DNA of 64,000 nucleotides from Patescibacteria group bacterium (GTDB lineage: Bacteria; Patescibacteriota; Gracilibacteria; UM-FILTER-43-11), in assembly GCA_018813295.1 (NCBI GenBank), contig JAHJBZ010000033.1, positions 7,422 through 71,421 of the forward strand, given 5' to 3'. The translations under genes were made by a program, and so were the position numbers. Below the pieces are notes generated by a model. The model was not told the origin of the DNA and made no database searches. It worked only from the letters and a program-made list of their open reading frames with translations. Below are positions 1,190 to 41,080 of this stretch, piece by piece (the first letter of the stretch is position 1; the number at the start of each line of letters is the position of its first letter).

Positions 1190-1227
1190 GTGAAATGTTA
1201 AATGTCAAAAGTTAAAAGTCAAATGTT
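1190..1227. repeat. Degenerate 7-nt tandem arm (AAATGTC/AAAAGTT type)
   Basis: tgaaatg ttaaatg tcaaaag ttaaaag tcaaatg; same unit as 28367, 43646 and 43954. Confidence 0.6.
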
Positions 1228-1974
1228 GTTTTTATAACTACTAGGAAGAGTATTTCGCAATGTATAAGTTGTTTGGTAAGAGGCTCTAACCGTTTGATAT
1301 GCCATCAATTCATTTTCATCGGCCGCTTCCCCAAATGGATAACGATGACGAGCTCTTACATAAATTTGAACATATGGTTGCAAATCCCGATCACCACTAA
1401 CGCGTGGATCAGCTGGCACTTCAATGTCAAAATCTTCAATTACGGTTTCTGATGAGTGTAACGGAAATGCATCTCCATTGCTAAACGCGATCATTAAACG
1501 AGCGGTATCTCCGTTATCACCACTTGAGGTATATGGTTCGCGGTAAATAGTAAAATACTGGGTTTCAGCACGGTCGGAAAAAATTGATATCTTATCAGTT
1601 TCTTGATTAATTCCTTCGCTCGGTTGGTTGCTATTGCTTTCGATTGTATCCGCATAATTAATTGCAAATCCTGAGCGTACAAGGCCGGGAATCCCATTAT
1701 TTAAGGCAATACTGGTTTCAAAATTTATATCTTTTTTATAACGAATAACTTCCTTAAAGTGGTATACGGAAAATAAATTCTGCATAACGATCGCGGAAAG
1801 GAATCCAAAAAATCCCATTACAATTATTAATTCAATTAAGGTAAAACCCTTATTATTAGGACTTTTAAGATTATTAAGACTATTACGACTATTGGGATGT
1901 AACCTATTAGAGATATCCATCCTAAAAGTCGTAAAAGTCGTAAAAGTCCTAATCGTCTTAATAAAATTTTTCAT
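1219..1974 (-). CDS. Type IV minor prepilin with long repeat-derived leader
   Basis: KGFTLIELIIVMG class III signal after a ~43-aa leader. Confidence 0.8.
   Translation of the reverse strand: MKNFIKTIRTFTTFTTFRMDISNRLHPNSRNSLNNLKSPNNKGFTLIELIIVMGFFGFLSAIVMQNLFSVYHFKEVIRYKKDINFETSIALNNGIPGLVRSGFAINYADTIESNSNQPSEGINQETDKISIFSDRAETQYFTIYREPYTSSGDNGDTARLMIAFSNGDAFPLHSSETVIEDFDIEVPADPRVSGDRDLQPYVQIYVRARHRYPFGEAADENELMAYQTVRASYQTTYTLRNTLPSSYKNNI
1853..1963. repeat. 9-nt periodic inverted-repeat hairpin inside the prepilin leader
   Basis: ttaggactt ttaagatta ttaagacta ttacgacta ttgggatg ... catcctaa aagtcgtaa aagtcgtaa aagtcctaa tcgtcttaa. Confidence 0.85.
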
Positions 1975-11371: not shown

Positions 11372-11476
11372 GGGACTAATTGAAGGACCAATAGAAGGAC
11401 CATTGTTGAACTAATGGTTGAACTAATCGATGAGTCCACCAATAAGTTCACCAATAAGTTCACCTATTAGTACAAC
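11370..11476. repeat. ~12-nt periodic inverted hairpin
   Basis: attgttgaacta atggttgaacta / aagttcaccaat aagttcacctat. Confidence 0.75.
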
Positions 11477-11485
11477 AATAGAAAA

Positions 11486-30821: not shown

Positions 30822-30886
30822 AGGATTCAGAAATCAGGATTCAGTAAAAACAGCTTAATCCTTAATGCTTAATCCTTAATGCTTAA
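30822..30886. repeat. 7-nt periodic arms (GGATTCA and CTTAATC families)
   Basis: aggattc agaaatc aggattc ag; cttaatc cttaatg cttaatc cttaatg cttaa. Confidence 0.75.
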
Positions 30887-32169
30887 TTAATCGTCGTTCC
30901 AATATAGAAGAATGGAAGCATAACTGCGAGCAAAATTGATCCAACCAATGCGGCTACTATAAAAATCATAATCGGTTCGACGAGAGTAGAAATATTTTTG
31001 AGTGTGTAATCGATACTTTTGTGGAAATTCTTTTTAATTTTAAACAGCATCTCGGAAATTCTTCCTGTTGATTCGCCAATGTGAATTAATTGGGCAACTT
31101 GCAGTGGAAAAAGCTTATTCTTTTTAAATTTTTGAGTTCTGATATCTTCAAGCCCCATCATCTCACTTATCTGTTTACCCATAATTATTCCATGACGAAT
31201 TTTCGCTAAGGCGCGTTGATAATGGAGGTTTGGAATTGTCTTTTCGGTGATTGCAAAAGCATCGCTAATAAGCACTCCACTCTTCATAAGCATTCCCATA
31301 TTGGCTGCAATCATCATTAGATTCTTTTCTTTATTCAATCGACCAACAATAGGAATGATGCTCACAAAGTTTTCCCAAATCAGCCTTCCAATTCGCGTTT
31401 TTACAAAGAAAAGCCATAGCAATACTACAGTTCCAACAATTGATATCAGAAGTATCATCCAGCTTGCTGCAACAAAATCGCTAATATCAATTACCGCCTG
31501 GGTAAGCTTTGGCAGTTCAACTTTGGCCTGATCATACATCGCAGCAATTTTTGGAATAACGAAAGTCATCATTCCGGCTACAAGTGCCATCGACAAACAC
31601 ACCAAAACCACCGGGTAAAACATAGCACCGGTAATCTTCCTCATAAAATCTTGATTGGCCTCCATTTCTTCTGTGAGTTCAATTAATACGACACTAAGAT
31701 TTCCACTTTTTTCCGCCGCTTCAACTAAAGCCGCCTGCATTTTTGGAAAAATATGCGGAAATAAATACATAGATTCAGCTAAGCTCATACCCGTATTTAT
31801 ATGATGGATCATTTCGCCATATAACTTTTTAAGCCCCTTACTTGTTGTTTGGGCCTGCACAAGTGATAGGGAGTCTATTAAAGTTACACTTGAGTCAACA
31901 AGGGTTGCCATTTGATCATAAAAATACAAACGGTCTTTGGATGACATGCGTAACATTTTTAGGCCAAACGATATTTTGGTGGCTTCTTGTTTCATTCCTG
32001 TCACAGCTTTTTCTTCTATTTTCTTTTCTTTATCCTTATCCTTGGACGCGAGATTTCGCGTTCCTACGGTTTCTTTTTTATTTCGATGAAAAATTTTGTC
32101 AAAAAACAGCTCAATTTCGAGCCAAAAATCTGAAAAGGTGTCTCTGATTTTGTATGCTAGTGCTGTCAT
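30883..32169 (-). CDS. pilC: Type IV pilus inner membrane platform protein (GspF/PilC)
   Basis: AAEKSGNL, AMFYP, FVIPKIA, IGESTGR, LVEPIMI. Confidence 0.92.
   Translation of the reverse strand: MTALAYKIRDTFSDFWLEIELFFDKIFHRNKKETVGTRNLASKDKDKEKKIEEKAVTGMKQEATKISFGLKMLRMSSKDRLYFYDQMATLVDSSVTLIDSLSLVQAQTTSKGLKKLYGEMIHHINTGMSLAESMYLFPHIFPKMQAALVEAAEKSGNLSVVLIELTEEMEANQDFMRKITGAMFYPVVLVCLSMALVAGMMTFVIPKIAAMYDQAKVELPKLTQAVIDISDFVAASWMILLISIVGTVVLLWLFFVKTRIGRLIWENFVSIIPIVGRLNKEKNLMMIAANMGMLMKSGVLISDAFAITEKTIPNLHYQRALAKIRHGIIMGKQISEMMGLEDIRTQKFKKNKLFPLQVAQLIHIGESTGRISEMLFKIKKNFHKSIDYTLKNISTLVEPIMIFIVAALVGSILLAVMLPFFYIGTTIN
32044..32067 (-). repeat. GTAG-type REP in-frame in the pilC N-terminus
   Basis: Minus strand GTAGGAACGCGAAATCTCGCGTCC encoding VGTRNLAS. 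Confidence 0.75.
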
Positions 32170-32171
32170 TT

Positions 32172-32600
32172 TTAATTGGGAGTATTGGGATTACTAGGAA
32201 TATTGGGGTCATTGGGATTTTTTTTGGATTCAGATAAGCGACAAAGGAGAAATCCCGTTTTATTAATTAATTCAATTAAATGTTCATAGTCGGATTTTGT
32301 AATATATTCTAATGCAAGAGCTAGTTCGGAATGACTGTCTACTTCTACCAATGAACTATAAGAGATATTGAAGAAATGTAATTTGTCACGCACTCCATTT
32401 CTTTCATTTCCTTCAGCGATATTAGACATGACCGATACTGACGCCCTTTTTATCTGACTACTTAATCCAAATTTTTCATCAGACGGAAATTTTTTTGCCA
32501 ATTGATAGACTTTCAAAGTAAGCTCTTTAGCTTTTTGCCAAACTATCAACTTCCTGAATGTTCTCTGATATTGTTTTTGCATAAATTTGTTTTTTATCAC
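32172..32600 (-). CDS. Four helix bundle protein (23S rRNA IVP/TIGR02436-like, Avd-related fold)
   Basis: FRKLIVWQKA, FPSDEKFGLSSQIKRASVSVMSNIAEG, SLVEV. Confidence 0.92.
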   Translation of the reverse strand: MIKNKFMQKQYQRTFRKLIVWQKAKELTLKVYQLAKKFPSDEKFGLSSQIKRASVSVMSNIAEGNERNGVRDKLHFFNISYSSLVEVDSHSELALALEYITKSDYEHLIELINKTGFLLCRLSESKKNPNDPNIPSNPNTPN

Positions 32601-32642
32601 TCACAATCCTCTTAGTAATCCCAATACTCCTAATACTCCCAA
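32176..32642. mobile_element. Cassette: 9-nt periodic inverted arms enclosing the four-helix-bundle gene
   Basis: Left 32176-32220 ttgggagta ttgggatta ctaggaata ttggggtca ttgggattt; right 32598-32642 reverse complement ttgggagta ttaggagta ttgggatta ctaagagga ttgtgagtg. Confidence 0.7.
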
Positions 32643-32643
32643 A

Positions 32644-33987
32644 TTAAGCCATTACCCGAATAGCTTCTTCAATAGTTATATCACCTGTAACTGCTTTATA
32701 GAGTGCGTCTTTTCGGAGTAGGATCATGCCTTCTTTTACGGCTTGTGCTTCTATTTCGGCATTGGAAGCATTATTGATAATGAGCTCTTCAATAGCTGGT
32801 GACATTTCCAAAACCTCGAATAAACCGATACGGCCGCTGTAACCAATATTATTACATTCTTTACAACCGTTCGCTTTGTAAAAAAAAGCGTTTTTTGGGT
32901 CTATGTTAACTTCCTTTTTAATAAGTTCATGATATTTTTCAGGAACCGGGTATTTTTCGCGGCAGTTTGAACAAACTTTGCGTGCCAACCTTTGTGAAAT
33001 AATTACTTTGACTGCTGCCGAGATTAGGAATCGGTCGATATCCATATTCAGCAAACGCTGAATAGTGCCCACAGCTGTATTGGTATGCAGTGTTGAAAAA
33101 ACCAGGTGACCTGTTAACGCGGATTCAATTGCCAGCGATGCTGTTTTCTGATCACGTATCTCACCGACCATGATAATATCCGGGTCCTGACGAACGATTG
33201 TGCGCAGTCCATCAGAAAAATCAAAGCCTATATCCGGATTGATCTGTGTTTGGGTAACATCTTTAATTTTGTATTCAATTGGATCTTCCAGGGTGGAAAT
33301 ATTGTAGTCTTCCGCATTAAAAGTGGAAAGCATAGAGAAAAGAGATGTAGATTTACCACTACCCGTAGGACCTACAGCCAAAATCATTCCATAAGAGGAC
33401 TTAAGGTGTTCCTCAATTTTCAATAAAATATTAGGAAGCATTCCTAAATCTCTCAACTCCACCATCTTTGGATCTTTTTCTAACAAACGTATAACAACCT
33501 TTTCTCCATATTGAGTTGGCAAAATAGAAACACGCAAATCCACTTCCTTTTTATCCTTGCTTTCAAAGCTGCATTTACCATCTTGAGGCAATCTATGTTC
33601 ATCGATCTTGAGTCCGGAAATAATTTTTATACGTGCGATAATTGGGTGATGATAAATTTTATCGAACACCTTGTATTCCACCATAGTCCCATCTATACGA
33701 AAATAAACCTCAAATTTATTCTCTTTTGGCTTAAAGTGGATATCACTCGCATGTTTTTTTAACGCATGATTAAAAATTTCATCAACGACATCGGGAACTG
33801 TGTCTTCGTCAAAAGTTTCGGCTTCTAGCACTTCTTCCTTTACCTTTTCATCCTTAGACGCAAGATCTTGCGTCTCTACTTTTTCTTTTTCTGAAATAGG
33901 CTCTTTTTCCACCTTTTCTTCAGGTGTTTCAGGTTTTTCTTTCAATGCCTGGTCGCTTTCTTTTTTTAGTGCATCTAATAATGACAT
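32644..33987 (-). CDS. pilB: GspE/PilB family pilus assembly ATPase (short form)
   Basis: ASDIHF, GPTGSGKST, RQDPDIIMVGEIRD, CSNC...CKEC. Confidence 0.9.
   Translation of the reverse strand: MSLLDALKKESDQALKEKPETPEEKVEKEPISEKEKVETQDLASKDEKVKEEVLEAETFDEDTVPDVVDEIFNHALKKHASDIHFKPKENKFEVYFRIDGTMVEYKVFDKIYHHPIIARIKIISGLKIDEHRLPQDGKCSFESKDKKEVDLRVSILPTQYGEKVVIRLLEKDPKMVELRDLGMLPNILLKIEEHLKSSYGMILAVGPTGSGKSTSLFSMLSTFNAEDYNISTLEDPIEYKIKDVTQTQINPDIGFDFSDGLRTIVRQDPDIIMVGEIRDQKTASLAIESALTGHLVFSTLHTNTAVGTIQRLLNMDIDRFLISAAVKVIISQRLARKVCSNCREKYPVPEKYHELIKKEVNIDPKNAFFYKANGCKECNNIGYSGRIGLFEVLEMSPAIEELIINNASNAEIEAQAVKEGMILLRKDALYKAVTGDITIEEAIRVMA
33856..33879 (-). repeat. GTAG-type REP in-frame in the pilB N-terminus
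   Basis: Minus strand GTAG plus perfect 20-bp palindrome AGACGCAAGATCTTGCGTCT encoding VETQDLAS. Confidence 0.85.
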
Positions 33988-34081: not shown

Positions 34082-34183
34082 TTGTCTGAACCATGATTTT
34101 CCTGATTAGGGGATTTCTTGATTACTTATTACGTAAAAATTAATCATGTAATCTTTTAATCCTATAAATCAAGGTTCAGACAA
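34082..34183. mobile_element. TTGTCTGAAC MITE-like element copy 2
   Basis: TTGTCTGAACCATGATT...AATCAAGGTTCAGACAA with GATT/AATC periodic arms. Confidence 0.8.
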
Positions 34184-38353: not shown

Positions 38354-38502
38354 TTGTCTGAACCGCTGATTTATCGGATTAAAATGATTACGCAGATTTT
38401 GATTTCGCTGATTTTTTTTGATTAAAATATTGCAAATTATCAATCTGTGTAATCAAAATCAGTGAAATCCGAAAAATCAGCGTGAATCAGCGGTTCAGAC
38501 AA
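38354..38502. mobile_element. TTGTCTGAAC MITE-like element copy 4, directly after a TAA stop
   Basis: Perfect 18-bp TIR TTGTCTGAACCGCTGATT/AATCAGCGGTTCAGACAA. Confidence 0.8.
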
Positions 38503-40140: not shown

Positions 40141-41040
40141 ATGAAAGGAATGGAGATAAAAGTTGAAAAAAACGTAGATTTAAACCAATTCACCACTTAC
40201 CACACTGGTGGTCCTGCTAAATTTTTTGCACGAGTGCAAAACTGGCAACAGATGTTGGGACTTCGTGAATTTGCAAGAGTGAACAAGATCCCATATTTGA
40301 TTTTGGGTGGTGGTAGCAATATTTTGTTTGCAGATGAAGGGTATCCGGGGTTGGTTATTATGAACCAAATGGATAAGGTTCGCATTCACCAACACACCAT
40401 TACCGCAGAAAGCGCAGTTAACTTGATGAAATTAGTTGTGATTGCTGCAAAAAATAATTTAGGCGGAATTTCCGGTCTTGCTAATGTGCCGGGAAGTGTT
40501 GGCGGTGCTGTTTATGGTAATGCTGGTGTATCGGATGTTTGTATCAGTGATGTATTTATGCATGCTGAGATACTCCCGACAAATGGAAATAAGCCGATTA
40601 TTGTTGGTCAGGACTATTGCCAGTTTGGGTATAGAACAAGCCGTTTTAAAGAGACAAAAGACATTATTCTTTCAGCTACATTAAAACTGCAGCCAGCACC
40701 AGCGCCATTAATTCAGTCTCAGGTTAGTGCATATGTTAAACAAAGGACTTTAAAACAACCGGTTGGAATGTCCTGCGGAAGCTTCTTTAAAAATCCAGGT
40801 GAATTTCCATCAGCCGGGTGGTTAATTGAGCAGAGTGGATGTAAGGGGATGAAGGTTGGAGGTGCACAAGTCTCTGAAAAACACGCCAATTTTATTTTAA
40901 ATACAGGTACGGCAACAAGCTCTGATATTGTGAATCTTGCACTTAAGGTTCATAAAAAAGTGGAGGAGAAGTATAGTGTTAAACTCGAGCCGGAAGTGCA
41001 GATTTTGCCGGGCAGCCCTTTTAAAAACTTGAAAACTTGA
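40141..41040 (+). CDS. murB: UDP-N-acetylenolpyruvoylglucosamine reductase
   Basis: GGGSNIL, PGSVGGAVYGNAG, CGSFFKNP, SEKHANFI, LEPEV; start 40141 or 40150. Confidence 0.95.
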   Translation: MKGMEIKVEKNVDLNQFTTYHTGGPAKFFARVQNWQQMLGLREFARVNKIPYLILGGGSNILFADEGYPGLVIMNQMDKVRIHQHTITAESAVNLMKLVVIAAKNNLGGISGLANVPGSVGGAVYGNAGVSDVCISDVFMHAEILPTNGNKPIIVGQDYCQFGYRTSRFKETKDIILSATLKLQPAPAPLIQSQVSAYVKQRTLKQPVGMSCGSFFKNPGEFPSAGWLIEQSGCKGMKVGGAQVSEKHANFILNTGTATSSDIVNLALKVHKKVEEKYSVKLEPEVQILPGSPFKNLKT

Positions 41041-41080
41041 AAATTATTTTTCAAATTTTTAGATTTTCAGATTTTCATTT
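41024..41080. repeat. 8-nt periodic inverted hairpin (TGAAAA/TTTTCA)
   Basis: aaaacttg aaaacttg aaaatt / ttttcaaa tttttaga ttttcaga ttttcat; similar at 53105-53165. Confidence 0.7.

What the first reader, a model, noticed from the sequence alone, without database searches (positions are those of the whole stretch)
32172..32646. Four-helix-bundle gene sits in the loop of a 9-mer inverted-repeat stem between pilB and pilC
Seen: five 9-nt units on each side, mutually inverted. One arm starts right after the pilB stop; the other forms the ORF's NPNDPNIPSNPNTPN tail and ends a few nt before the pilC ATG. Established: this family was first found in 23S rRNA intervening sequences, which are stem-loops excised by RNase III, and is structurally related to DGR Avd; its function is unknown. 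Inference: this is the filled form of the periodic hairpins seen throughout the window, an IVS-like mobile or excisable cassette in mRNA operons whose protein may bind or mobilise the repeats. Best candidate here for an undescribed system.
Basis: partly seen in the sequence, partly recalled or inferred. Interest (0 to 1): 0.85.

Follow-up and report, generated by a model that had tools for sequence, protein, structure and literature searches.

The report
Four-helix gene inside periodic inverted repeats
A small gene of unknown function sits between two mirror-image arrays of short tandem repeats in a pilus operon. The same packaging surrounds nearly every gene of this family across bacteria, matching the element once thought peculiar to ribosomal RNA genes.

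Summary
On the minus strand, a PF05635 four-helix-bundle (hb) gene lies between pilB and pilC, enclosed by inverted arrays of about five 9-nt units.

The pattern is general. 27 of 31 hb genes in this family (Candidatus Peribacteraceae) have inverted flanks above the 95th percentile of mismatched-flank controls. So do 69 of 76 hb genes fetched mostly from other phyla. Units are locus-specific and nearly always 7 nt.

The cassettes are about 460 nt long, mostly co-oriented with their neighbours, and abut them. The Coxiella 23S rRNA IVS, cut by RNase III, has the same build. No paper found by my searches generalises this.

The 9-nt period here fits translation of the 3' arm. In four sister genera the hb ORF reads through an xPN linker into a type IV pilin at the G|F cleavage site. 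An empty 9-mer hairpin encodes another pilin's leader at window 1853-1964.

Related hb clades carry the same unit family at different loci, so arms travel with the gene.

RNA excision, DNA excision and protein-repeat binding remain untested. Stem mismatches show no G:U excess, and contigs showed no excised form.

Verdict: a real IVS-type cassette and a new variant of a known kind.

The parts
32644..33987 (-). pilB/GspE-type ATPase, the upstream neighbour. Its stop codon (32644-32646) abuts the 5' arm.
   Evidence: PF00437 E 7e-122. Orthologues of 68-83% identity in 19 family-level relatives.
32601..32643 (-). 5' arm: about five tandem 9-nt units (TTTGGGAGT ATTAGGAGT ATTGGGATT ACTAAGAGG ATTGTGAGT on the minus strand). 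Untranslated.
   Evidence: TRF 32599-32642. Inverted repeat I1/I2. Sequence read.
32172..32600 (-). Four-helix-bundle (hb) ORF. The PF05635 domain spans 32247-32555. The likelier ATG start is at 32582 (136 aa); a GTG at 32600 gives 142 aa.
   Evidence: PF05635 E 6e-36 and bAvd-like E 1e-7, below its cut-off. TIGR02436 E 1e-31. PDB 2gsc E 1e-16 and 2rld E 5e-7. Family-invariant R, S, N, E, G, S, E residues are present.
32175..32217 (-). 3' arm: about five 9-nt units complementary to the 5' arm, translated in frame as the tail NPNDPNIPSNPNTPN.
   Evidence: TRF period 9, 4.8 copies. Inverted repeat. Translation.
30883..32169 (-). pilC/GspF platform protein, the downstream neighbour. Its ATG lies 2 nt after the hb stop.
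   Evidence: PF00482 E 2e-43. Coordinates.
1853..1964 (-). Comparator: an empty 9-mer periodic hairpin of the same style, with an 18-nt loop. It lies inside the leader-coding region of a pilin-like ORF (1219-1974). Its 3' arm encodes HPNSRNSLNNLKSPNNK just before G|FTLIEL.
   Evidence: Hairpin score 22, period 9. ORF and sequence.

Best explanation
The 475-nt segment is an IVS-type four-helix-bundle cassette. A promoterless PF05635 gene is enclosed by two inverted arrays of short tandem units and inserted in sense orientation between pilB and pilC.

Shown here:
- This packaging is the normal state of PF05635 genes, in this family and in many phyla.
- The cassettes are about 460 nt, abut their neighbours, and are mostly co-oriented with them.
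- The arms belong to the cassette and go with the gene to new loci.
- At the pilB junction the unit is 9 nt, a multiple of three, and the 3' arm is translated. In sister genera the arm is the linker that fuses hb in frame to a type IV pilin at the prepilin cleavage site. In this genome the pilin is gone, and the ORF stops 2 nt before pilC.

Inferred, on the model of the rRNA IVS:
- The cassette is transcribed with the pilB-pilC operon.
- The arms pair in the transcript, and the stem is a substrate for the genome's RNase III.
- Cleavage would release or regulate the hb message.
- Termination of hb translation next to the pilC ATG would couple pilC expression to it.

My confidence differs by part. 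That it is an IVS-type cassette built to a family-wide plan: about 0.9. That it is processed by RNase III in mRNA: about 0.4.
For: Local anatomy. Predicted closing stem.

Family-wide flanks:
- 27 of 31 Peribacteraceae hb loci with both flanks exceed the 95th percentile of 182 mismatched-flank controls. 19 of 31 exceed the control maximum.
- 69 of 76 loci fetched from genome contigs (74 of them from other lineages) exceed the 95th percentile of 301 controls. 40 of 76 exceed the control maximum.
- The period is 7 in 45 of the 49 loci scoring 15 or more.
- Tandem arrays occur in 26 of 74 upstream and 25 of 74 downstream flanks, against 5 of 282 control windows.
- In this genome only 37 of 1270 ORFs have flank scores of 15 or more.

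Cassette geometry:
- hb is co-oriented with the upstream gene in 74 of 88 loci and with the downstream gene in 68 of 82.
- The median gap is 4.5 nt from the upstream gene to the arm, and 12.5 nt from the arm to the next gene.
- The median cassette length is 464 nt.

Known IVS: the Coxiella element is 428-444 nt, has a 28-bp terminal stem cut by RNase III, and carries GACAGAT heptamers of variable copy number before the ORF (PMC4990558, passages read). RNase III is encoded in this genome.

Translation of the arm:
- The hb-pilin ORFs in L010, L011 and L018 carry PF05635 plus N_methyl. L026 has the same reading.
- No in-frame start codon lies between hb and G|F.

Arms travel with the gene:
- The six family-level pilB-junction hb copies form one clade (93/86), all with 9-mer arms.
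- The same hb clade and the same unit family occur at loci with unrelated flanks: L042/L052 versus L055 versus L058, the L039 group versus L040, and L065 versus L057.
Against: - No transcript data exist for this organism; no RNA run was listed. Processing is inferred only.
- Stem mismatches show no excess of G:U-type over A:C-type (67 versus 90 of 365; 13 versus 16 in stems with at most 3 mismatches). Most mismatches are transversion-type differences in unit order. So strict base pairing in the sense RNA does not look like the selected property.
- In the pilin fusions, cleaving the stem would separate the pilin coding region from its only start codon.
- 7 of 76 wide loci and 4 of 31 family loci showed no significant inverted flanks. 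At least two of the misses (L117, L153) have N-masked sequence just upstream.
- In the Coxiella study the authors concluded that the protein is probably not made in vivo (abstract).
Confidence: 0.6

Rival explanations
1. DNA-level foldback element. The arms are terminal inverted arrays that act in DNA, as a cruciform, as a single-strand hairpin, or as protein-binding iterons. The cassette is moved or copied as DNA by an enzyme supplied in trans. Short-loop periodic hairpins are its gene-less derivatives.
For: - Arms travel with the gene to unrelated loci.
- Mismatches are unit-variant differences with no G:U bias.
- A parallel case exists in the same genomes. PF13366/GxxExxY genes carry a shared terminal motif, TGTCTGAAC..TGATT, plus TGATT repeats. 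Gene-less copies lie at window 34082-34183 and downstream of L21 in G015, G024, G022 and G017.
- Presence at the pilB junction is patchy. Six hb-bearing rows need six changes on the pilB tree, and G024 (with hb) and G001 (without) have nearly identical pilB.
- In hb-independent loci, genomes with 6 or more hb copies have 11 periodic hairpins in 159 kb. Genomes with 2 or fewer have 0 in 82 kb.
- Y1_Tnp occurs in 16 of 18 hb-rich genomes and 2 of 11 hb-poor genomes.
Against: - The cassette holds no transposase or recombinase.
- There is no target-site duplication signal (88 loci, distribution as in shuffles).
- Arm sequence is not conserved between cassettes.
- No contig joins across the cassette, and the sequence is identical in an independent sample eight years later.
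- The closest hb pairs are all orthologous loci, so moves are rare.
- The co-occurrence counts are not corrected for kinship.
Confidence: 0.3
2. The hb protein binds the repeat arrays. In solved relatives it is a homopentamer, and it would take one unit per subunit on single-stranded RNA or DNA. It would thereby regulate its own message or operon, or protect or expose the stem. This does not exclude the other readings.
For: - Arms typically hold 3-6 units, about 5 here.
- Unit cores are kept while 2-3 positions vary.
- AG occurs in 45 of 56 consensus heptamers, against roughly 47% expected from composition by my own estimate.
- Arms read inward are G-rich and C-poor in 80 of 85 loci.
- hb clade tracks unit family.
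- The PDB relatives 2gsc and 2rld each have five chains.
Against: - No binding data exist and no binding test was run here.
- Unit similarity falls to background below about 60% protein identity.
- Clade-unit tracking is equally explained by co-inheritance.
- The match between 7 nt and subunit spacing is my own estimate, not a computation.
Confidence: 0.2
3. Coincidence. The intergenic DNA of this genome is full of periodic hairpins, and an ordinary small gene happens to lie between two of them.
For: The genome has 363 short-loop hairpins, of which 148 are periodic. Some housekeeping genes also score high because neighbouring AT-rich hairpins share units.
Against: - Only 2.9% of ORFs score 15 or more, against 27 of 31 and 69 of 76 hb genes above control.
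- In other phyla, empty periodic hairpins are rare around the hb loci. About 3 independent ones were found in 240 kb.
Confidence: 0.02

Closest known systems
Intervening sequence (IVS) of 23S rRNA with S23p/PF05635 ORF (Coxiella burnetii, Leptospira)
   Same: - The same protein family sits in the loop of a stem formed by terminal inverted repeats.
- The size is similar: 428-444 nt against 475 nt here and a median of 464 nt.
- Tandem heptamers lie in the 5' part, with variable copy number.
- The ORF is co-oriented with the host transcript (PMC4990558).
   Different: - This element sits between protein-coding genes of a pilus operon, not in helix 25 or 45 of rRNA.
- The unit is 9 nt, and the 3' arm is translated.
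- RNase III cleavage is shown for the IVS but not here.
Avd, accessory protein of diversity-generating retroelements
   Same: Same fold family. PF22296 bAvd-like scores E 1e-7, and NF033474 scores E 1e-9.
   Different: Both scores are below their cut-offs. The neighbours are pilB and pilC, not a reverse transcriptase or template/variable repeats.
REPIN-RAYT systems and MITEs
   Same: A single gene is flanked by inverted hairpin-forming repeats, and many gene-less hairpins of like build lie elsewhere in the genome.
   Different: - hb is not a Y1/HUH transposase.
- Arm sequence differs from cassette to cassette.
- No target-site duplication was found.
Over-represented intergenic heptameric tandem repeats: Xanthomonas GGGAATC, Nostoc GGGGA(C/T)T, Beggiatoaceae TAACTGA
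   Same: These are G-rich 7-nt units, mostly about four copies, intergenic, and variable in length. In 70 (Xcc) and 75 (Xac) cases, two arrays lie close together in convergent orientation (PMC4692102, passages read; PMC4679880, passages read).
   Different: In those genomes one unit sequence dominates. Neither paper's main text contains '23S' or 'helix bundle'. No link to PF05635 is made, and I did not test one.
Foldback transposons of Drosophila (recalled)
   Same: Long terminal inverted repeats are themselves built of short tandem repeats, and they vary in length between copies.
   Different: They are eukaryotic, much longer, and have a different cargo. This is an analogy only.

Membership tests
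PF05635 / TIGR02436 four-helix-bundle protein (23S rRNA IVS protein) | Profile match above the curated cut-off | tested here: met
   PF05635 scores 123.3 bits against a cut-off of 33.8. TIGR02436 scores 109.2 bits against a cut-off of 24.
PF05635 / TIGR02436 four-helix-bundle protein (23S rRNA IVS protein) | Conserved RxxxSxxxNxxE(G) motif, reported as GxxRxxxSxxxNxxE in PMC3936711 | tested here: met
   R37, S41, N45, E48 and G49 are invariant in 16 aligned sequences including this one. The leading G of the published motif is Q here, by my reading of the ORF.
PF05635 / TIGR02436 four-helix-bundle protein (23S rRNA IVS protein) | Homopentamer of four-helix bundles | not tested
   Only sequence matches to 2gsc and 2rld were obtained; each entry has five chains. 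No structure was predicted.
23S rRNA intervening sequence (IVS) element | Inserted in a 23S rRNA helix (25 or 45) | tested here: not met
   It lies between pilB and pilC.
23S rRNA intervening sequence (IVS) element | ORF enclosed by terminal inverted repeats that form a stem | tested here: met
23S rRNA intervening sequence (IVS) element | Tandem short (heptameric) repeats in the stem region | tested here: met
   The units are 9 nt here and 7 nt in most paralogues and homologues.
23S rRNA intervening sequence (IVS) element | Excision from the transcript by RNase III | not testable with these tools
   No RNA run was listed. The rnc gene is present.
Diversity-generating retroelement (Avd) | Avd profile above its cut-off, and an adjacent reverse transcriptase with template/variable repeats | tested here: not met
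   NF033474 scores 38 bits against a cut-off of 80. The neighbours are pilB and pilC.
Transposon / MITE with terminal inverted repeats | Conserved terminal repeats, target-site duplication, and a transposase in the autonomous copy | tested here: not met
   Arm units differ between cassettes. There is no duplication signal. The only ORF is hb.

The most novel reading that the evidence does not exclude
PF05635 proteins are the long-missing protein partner of the heptameric tandem repeats that are over-represented in bacterial genomes. The pentamer would read or set a roughly 7-nt register. Gene-bearing cassettes, including the rRNA IVS, would be the autonomous form. The solo heptamer arrays and periodic hairpins would be their gene-less offspring. 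Examples are the empty hairpins here, and perhaps the Xanthomonas GGGAATC, Nostoc and Beggiatoa repeats.
Probability: 0.15. Interest if true: 0.9.

Novelty: new variant of a known kind. Interest (0 to 1): 0.75.

Why it matters
PF05635 is a large, widespread family with solved structures and no known function.

- **The IVS is the general form.** The rRNA IVS architecture appears to be the usual packaging of these genes in ordinary operons across phyla. The IVS is then one instance of a general cassette, not an rRNA curiosity.
- **The family gains a testable partner.** That partner is its own flanking repeat arrays.
- **A possible link to a known puzzle.** Heptameric tandem repeats are over-represented in bacterial genomes and remain unexplained. 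This finding may connect to that.
- **An unusual coding arrangement.** The in-frame 9-mer variant places the domain in the position of a prepilin leader peptide. A structural repeat has been recruited into coding sequence.

Tried and rejected
- **RNA evidence:** no RNA holder was listed.
- **Contigs:** I laid Logan contigs of four DNA runs. No contig joins across the cassette. Contigs drop rare variants, so this says nothing about rare excision. Run X5 holds only a diverged relative.
- **Wobble test:** no G:U excess was found. Because periodic arms can align in several registers, this counts as weak evidence against RNA-level selection, not as disproof.
- **Stops in all three frames of the arms:** 34 of 89 5' arms against 7 of 89 3' arms in the sense direction. 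The mean is 1.79 frames against 1.35 for shuffled arms. The asymmetry is real but not universal, and it may follow simply from the low C content.
- **G-rich 'polarity':** I first read it as relative to hb. It is intrinsic to any inverted repeat and says nothing about gene orientation. The empty hairpins of this genome lack it (79 G-rich against 54 C-rich).
- **Target-site duplications:** none above expectation. Arm ends are fuzzy.
- **Terminator reading of the short hairpins:** periodic hairpins occur in 104 of 885 tandem, 19 of 175 divergent and 9 of 192 convergent gaps. They are not enriched at convergent gene ends.
- **PADLOC defence models:** no match for three hb proteins.
- **MetK and L21 junctions:** tblastn detected hb downstream of MetK only in G000 among 20 genomes. 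It detected none downstream of L21 among 27. Reading the printed sequence by eye shows a divergent hb after L21 in G000 and G007. The other junctions hold unrelated hairpins, terminators or nothing, so no clean empty-site allele with the same arms was found.
- **TRF-based pairing of arrays:** too insensitive for short arms and noisy for AT-rich units. I replaced it with direct flank alignment.
- **Literature:** searches found no paper that generalises periodic inverted flanks to PF05635 genes. Subscription journals are not covered. Supplementary tables were closed. The repeat lists of PMC4692102 could show whether Xcc0516 is flanked by GGGAATC arrays.
Full report
**What is there**

On the minus strand the window holds three genes in a row:
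- pilB, 32644-33987 (PF00437)
- a 136/142-aa ORF, 32172-32600 (PF05635, E 6e-36)
- pilC, 30883-32169 (PF00482)

The small protein also matches TIGR02436. It matches the DGR Avd model below that model's cut-off. It matches two solved proteins of unknown function, 2gsc and 2rld, each deposited with five chains.

Directly after the pilB stop come about five 9-nt units. The last 43 nt of the small ORF are about five complementary units, which encode NPNDPNIPSNPNTPN. The stop codon lies 2 nt before the pilC ATG. Folded as RNA, the two arrays pair and close the whole cassette.

**Is it more than chance?**

The genome is 1.53 Mb in 87 contigs with 38% G+C. Record titles of its relatives name Candidatus Peribacteraceae.

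It is rich in hairpins. I counted 363 with a loop of at most 40 nt. Of these, 148 have periodic arms, 95 of them with period 7, and they use 78 different units.

I therefore scored the best ungapped inverted match between the 160 nt upstream and the 160 nt downstream of each hb gene. As a control I paired flanks of different loci.

- In this genome and 23 relatives of its family, 35 hb loci were examined and 4 had a flank cut by a contig end.
- 27 of the remaining 31 exceed the 95th percentile of 182 controls, and 19 exceed the control maximum.
- Among all 1270 testable ORFs of this genome, 37 (2.9%) reach a score of 15. These include three hb genes. A fourth hb, broken by a TAA, scores 19.
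- The rest are a GIY-YIG gene, a GxxExxY gene, two Y1-transposase-like ORFs, and housekeeping genes lying between AT-rich hairpins that share units.

**The pattern is general**

A scan of one genome per species, using an alignment of six Peribacteraceae hb proteins, returned 80 loci. They come from Bacteroidota, Clostridia, Acidobacteriota, Planctomycetota, Proteobacteria, Desulfobacterota, Nitrospirota and others, and include cultured isolates.

- 76 loci had both flanks. 69 exceed the 95th percentile of 301 controls, 40 exceed the control maximum, and 49 score 15 or more.
- Among those 49 the arm period is 7 in 45.
- Scored independently of any inverted match, tandem arrays occur in 26 of 74 upstream and 25 of 74 downstream flanks, against 5 of 282 control windows. 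The period is 7 in 47 of those 51 flank arrays.
- The unit differs from locus to locus.
- Two of the misses have N-masked sequence just upstream of the gene.

For the 89 cassettes with located arms:
- hb is co-oriented with the upstream gene in 74 of 88 and with the downstream gene in 68 of 82.
- The arms abut the neighbours, with median gaps of 4.5 and 12.5 nt.
- The length from arm to arm is 420-559 nt (median 464).
- The hb stop lies before the 3' arm in 57, inside it in 23, and beyond it in 9.

**Relation to the known IVS**

I read passages of the Coxiella paper (PMC4990558). It describes a 428-444-nt element in 23S rRNA with these features:
- a 28-bp stem of terminal inverted repeats;
- RNase III cuts in the middle of that stem;
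- three or four tandem GACAGAT heptamers before the S23p start, with copy number varying between strains.

That is the same plan. Other papers report hb genes inside cas operons (PMC3936711) and in 16S and 23S insertions of CPR bacteria (PMC11270868). None of the papers found by my searches states that periodic inverted flanks are a general property of the family.

**Why 9 nt here**

Most relatives have a type IV pilin-like gene of about 220 aa between pilB and pilC. The closest relative, G008, has pilB and pilC adjacent, with neither hb nor the pilin.

In G015, G006, G024 and G016, hb follows pilB behind a 9-mer arm, as it does here. There the ORF runs on through an xPN-type linker, which is the translated 3' arm, into the pilin. 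It joins exactly at ...KKG|FSLVEL, and no in-frame start codon lies in between. Pfam finds PF05635 plus the N-terminal methylation motif in the three ORFs tested. All five genomes, this one included, encode a prepilin peptidase.

In those genomes hb plus arm therefore occupies the place of the pilin leader peptide. A period that is a multiple of three keeps the frame. In this genome the pilin is missing and the ORF ends at pilC.

A second pilin-like ORF in the window (1219-1974) has a leader encoded by an empty hairpin with the same kind of 9-mers (1853-1964). Its 3' arm reads HPNSRNSLNNLKSPNNK before G|FTLIEL. This is the clearest filled/empty pair.

**Stable or mobile?**

Both, on different time scales.

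- The six family-level pilB-junction hb proteins form one clade (93/86), all with 9-mer arms. This lineage of the cassette is old.
- Its presence is scattered on the pilB tree: six hb-bearing rows, counting the divergent hb-like gene of G025, need six changes. G024 (with hb) and G001 (without) have almost identical pilB.
- Between those two genomes the whole stretch from the pilB stop to the pilin G|F codon differs. It is arm-hb-arm in one and a 43-nt array of 8-mers in the other.
- hb pairs of 70% identity or more share their heptamer (mean 6.5 of 7), but all such pairs are orthologous loci.
- More telling, members of one hb clade carry the same unit family at loci with unrelated flanks. Examples are 8-mers with a GTGC core in L042/L052, L055 and L058, AGCG units in the L039 group and L040, and AGGACTA in L065 and L057. 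The arms therefore go with the gene.
- No target-site duplication was detected.
- No contig lacking the cassette was seen, and the cassette is identical in an independent sample taken eight years later.

**RNA or DNA?**

For an RNA role:
- the IVS precedent;
- sense orientation within operons;
- the predicted closing stem;
- an rnc gene in the genome.

Against an RNA role:
- Mismatches in the stems are not enriched for G:U (67 against 90 A:C-type of 365).
- The mismatches are mostly differences in the order of unit variants.
- The pilin fusions need an uncut message.

What is conserved looks like two inverted arrays of one unit family rather than exact pairing. That would also suit a protein that reads the units. 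I could not test this.

**The hairpin background**

- Of the 18 short-loop hairpins in the window, 13 are periodic.
- They include AT-rich 7-mers, 8-mers and 12-mers, and gene-less copies of a second cassette type.
- That second type is the PF13366/GxxExxY gene, which in this family is flanked by a shared terminal motif, TGTCTGAAC..TGATT, plus TGATT repeats.
- The periodic hairpins are not concentrated at convergent gene ends.
- In three kinds of loci chosen without regard to hb (around pilB, MetK and L21), genomes with 6 or more hb copies hold 28 hairpins, 11 of them periodic, in 159 kb. Genomes with 2 or fewer hold 2 hairpins, none periodic, in 82 kb (Spearman 0.44, not corrected for kinship).
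- Y1-transposase-like genes are found in 16 of the 18 hb-rich genomes and 2 of the 11 hb-poor genomes.

These are leads, not proofs. Two papers document that G-rich heptameric repeats are over-represented in some bacteria, often as convergent pairs, and remain unexplained (PMC4692102; PMC4679880). Neither mentions this gene family.

**Verdict**

The finding is real. The element is best described as an IVS-type hb cassette in a pilus operon, with a translated 9-nt variant of the arms. The general rule behind it is that PF05635 genes come packed between inverted arrays of short tandem units. I did not find that rule in print, and it gives the family its first concrete, testable partner. How the cassette acts remains open: RNase III processing, repeat binding, or DNA-level mobility.

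Noticed in passing
L010:2893-3930, L011:2764-3798, L018:2725-3783; also L026: In four sister genera the hb ORF is fused in frame to a type IV pilin-like protein. The join is at the G|F prepilin cleavage site, so hb plus linker stands where the leader peptide should be.
   Followed up: partly
window 1219-1974 (-), hairpin 1853-1964: A pilin-like ORF has a roughly 41-aa leader encoded by both arms of an empty 9-mer periodic hairpin. An ATG in the loop would give a 24-aa leader.
   Followed up: partly
G000:C38:72168-72575; window 34082-34183 and 38386-38469; L219-L235: PF13366/TIGR04256 (GxxExxY, PD-(D/E)XK) genes are flanked by inverted repeats with a shared terminal motif, TGTCTGAAC..TGATT, followed by TGATT repeats. 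Gene-less foldbacks with the same ends occur in the window and downstream of L21 in four relatives.
   Followed up: partly
G000:C2:9484-9801: A 105-aa GIY-YIG gene is flanked by a 52-nt, non-periodic inverted repeat (score 27).
   Followed up: no
G000:C47:8911-10560; window 11402-11479: A 549-aa ORF with treble-clef zinc-finger matches at both ends is flanked by a 52-nt inverted repeat of 12-nt units (CTAATTGGTGAC-like). Hairpins with 12-nt units also occur in the window.
   Followed up: no
family genomes G000-G046: Y1_Tnp (IS200-like) matches occur in 16 of 18 genomes with 6 or more hb copies and in 2 of 11 genomes with 2 or fewer. This is not corrected for kinship. Two such ORFs in G000 (C18:43085-43642, C69:30654-31157) are themselves flanked by inverted repeats.
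   Followed up: partly
G000 contigs C13, C23, C25, C52, C53, C78, C82; window 41024-41077: There are recurrent pairs of inverted 8-mer arrays (TTGAAAAC / TTTTCAGA) separated by about 80-150 nt. The content of the loops was not examined.
   Followed up: no
G000:C45 end and G000:C82 start: Two contigs end inside hb genes. Public contigs of other runs also break inside the pilB-pilC hb. Paralogous hb sequence seems to fragment assemblies.
   Followed up: no
L099 1295-1393, L117 1381-1477, L153 1371-1469: Runs of N (masked stretches) lie just upstream of hb in three fetched loci. They hide the expected 5' arm and account for some low flank scores.
   Followed up: no
G000:C2:20054-20329: The hb copy downstream of ribosomal protein L21 has an in-frame TAA and belongs to a divergent subtype, as does the copy on C87. 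G007 appears to have the same subtype at the same junction, by my reading of the sequence printed.
   Followed up: partly
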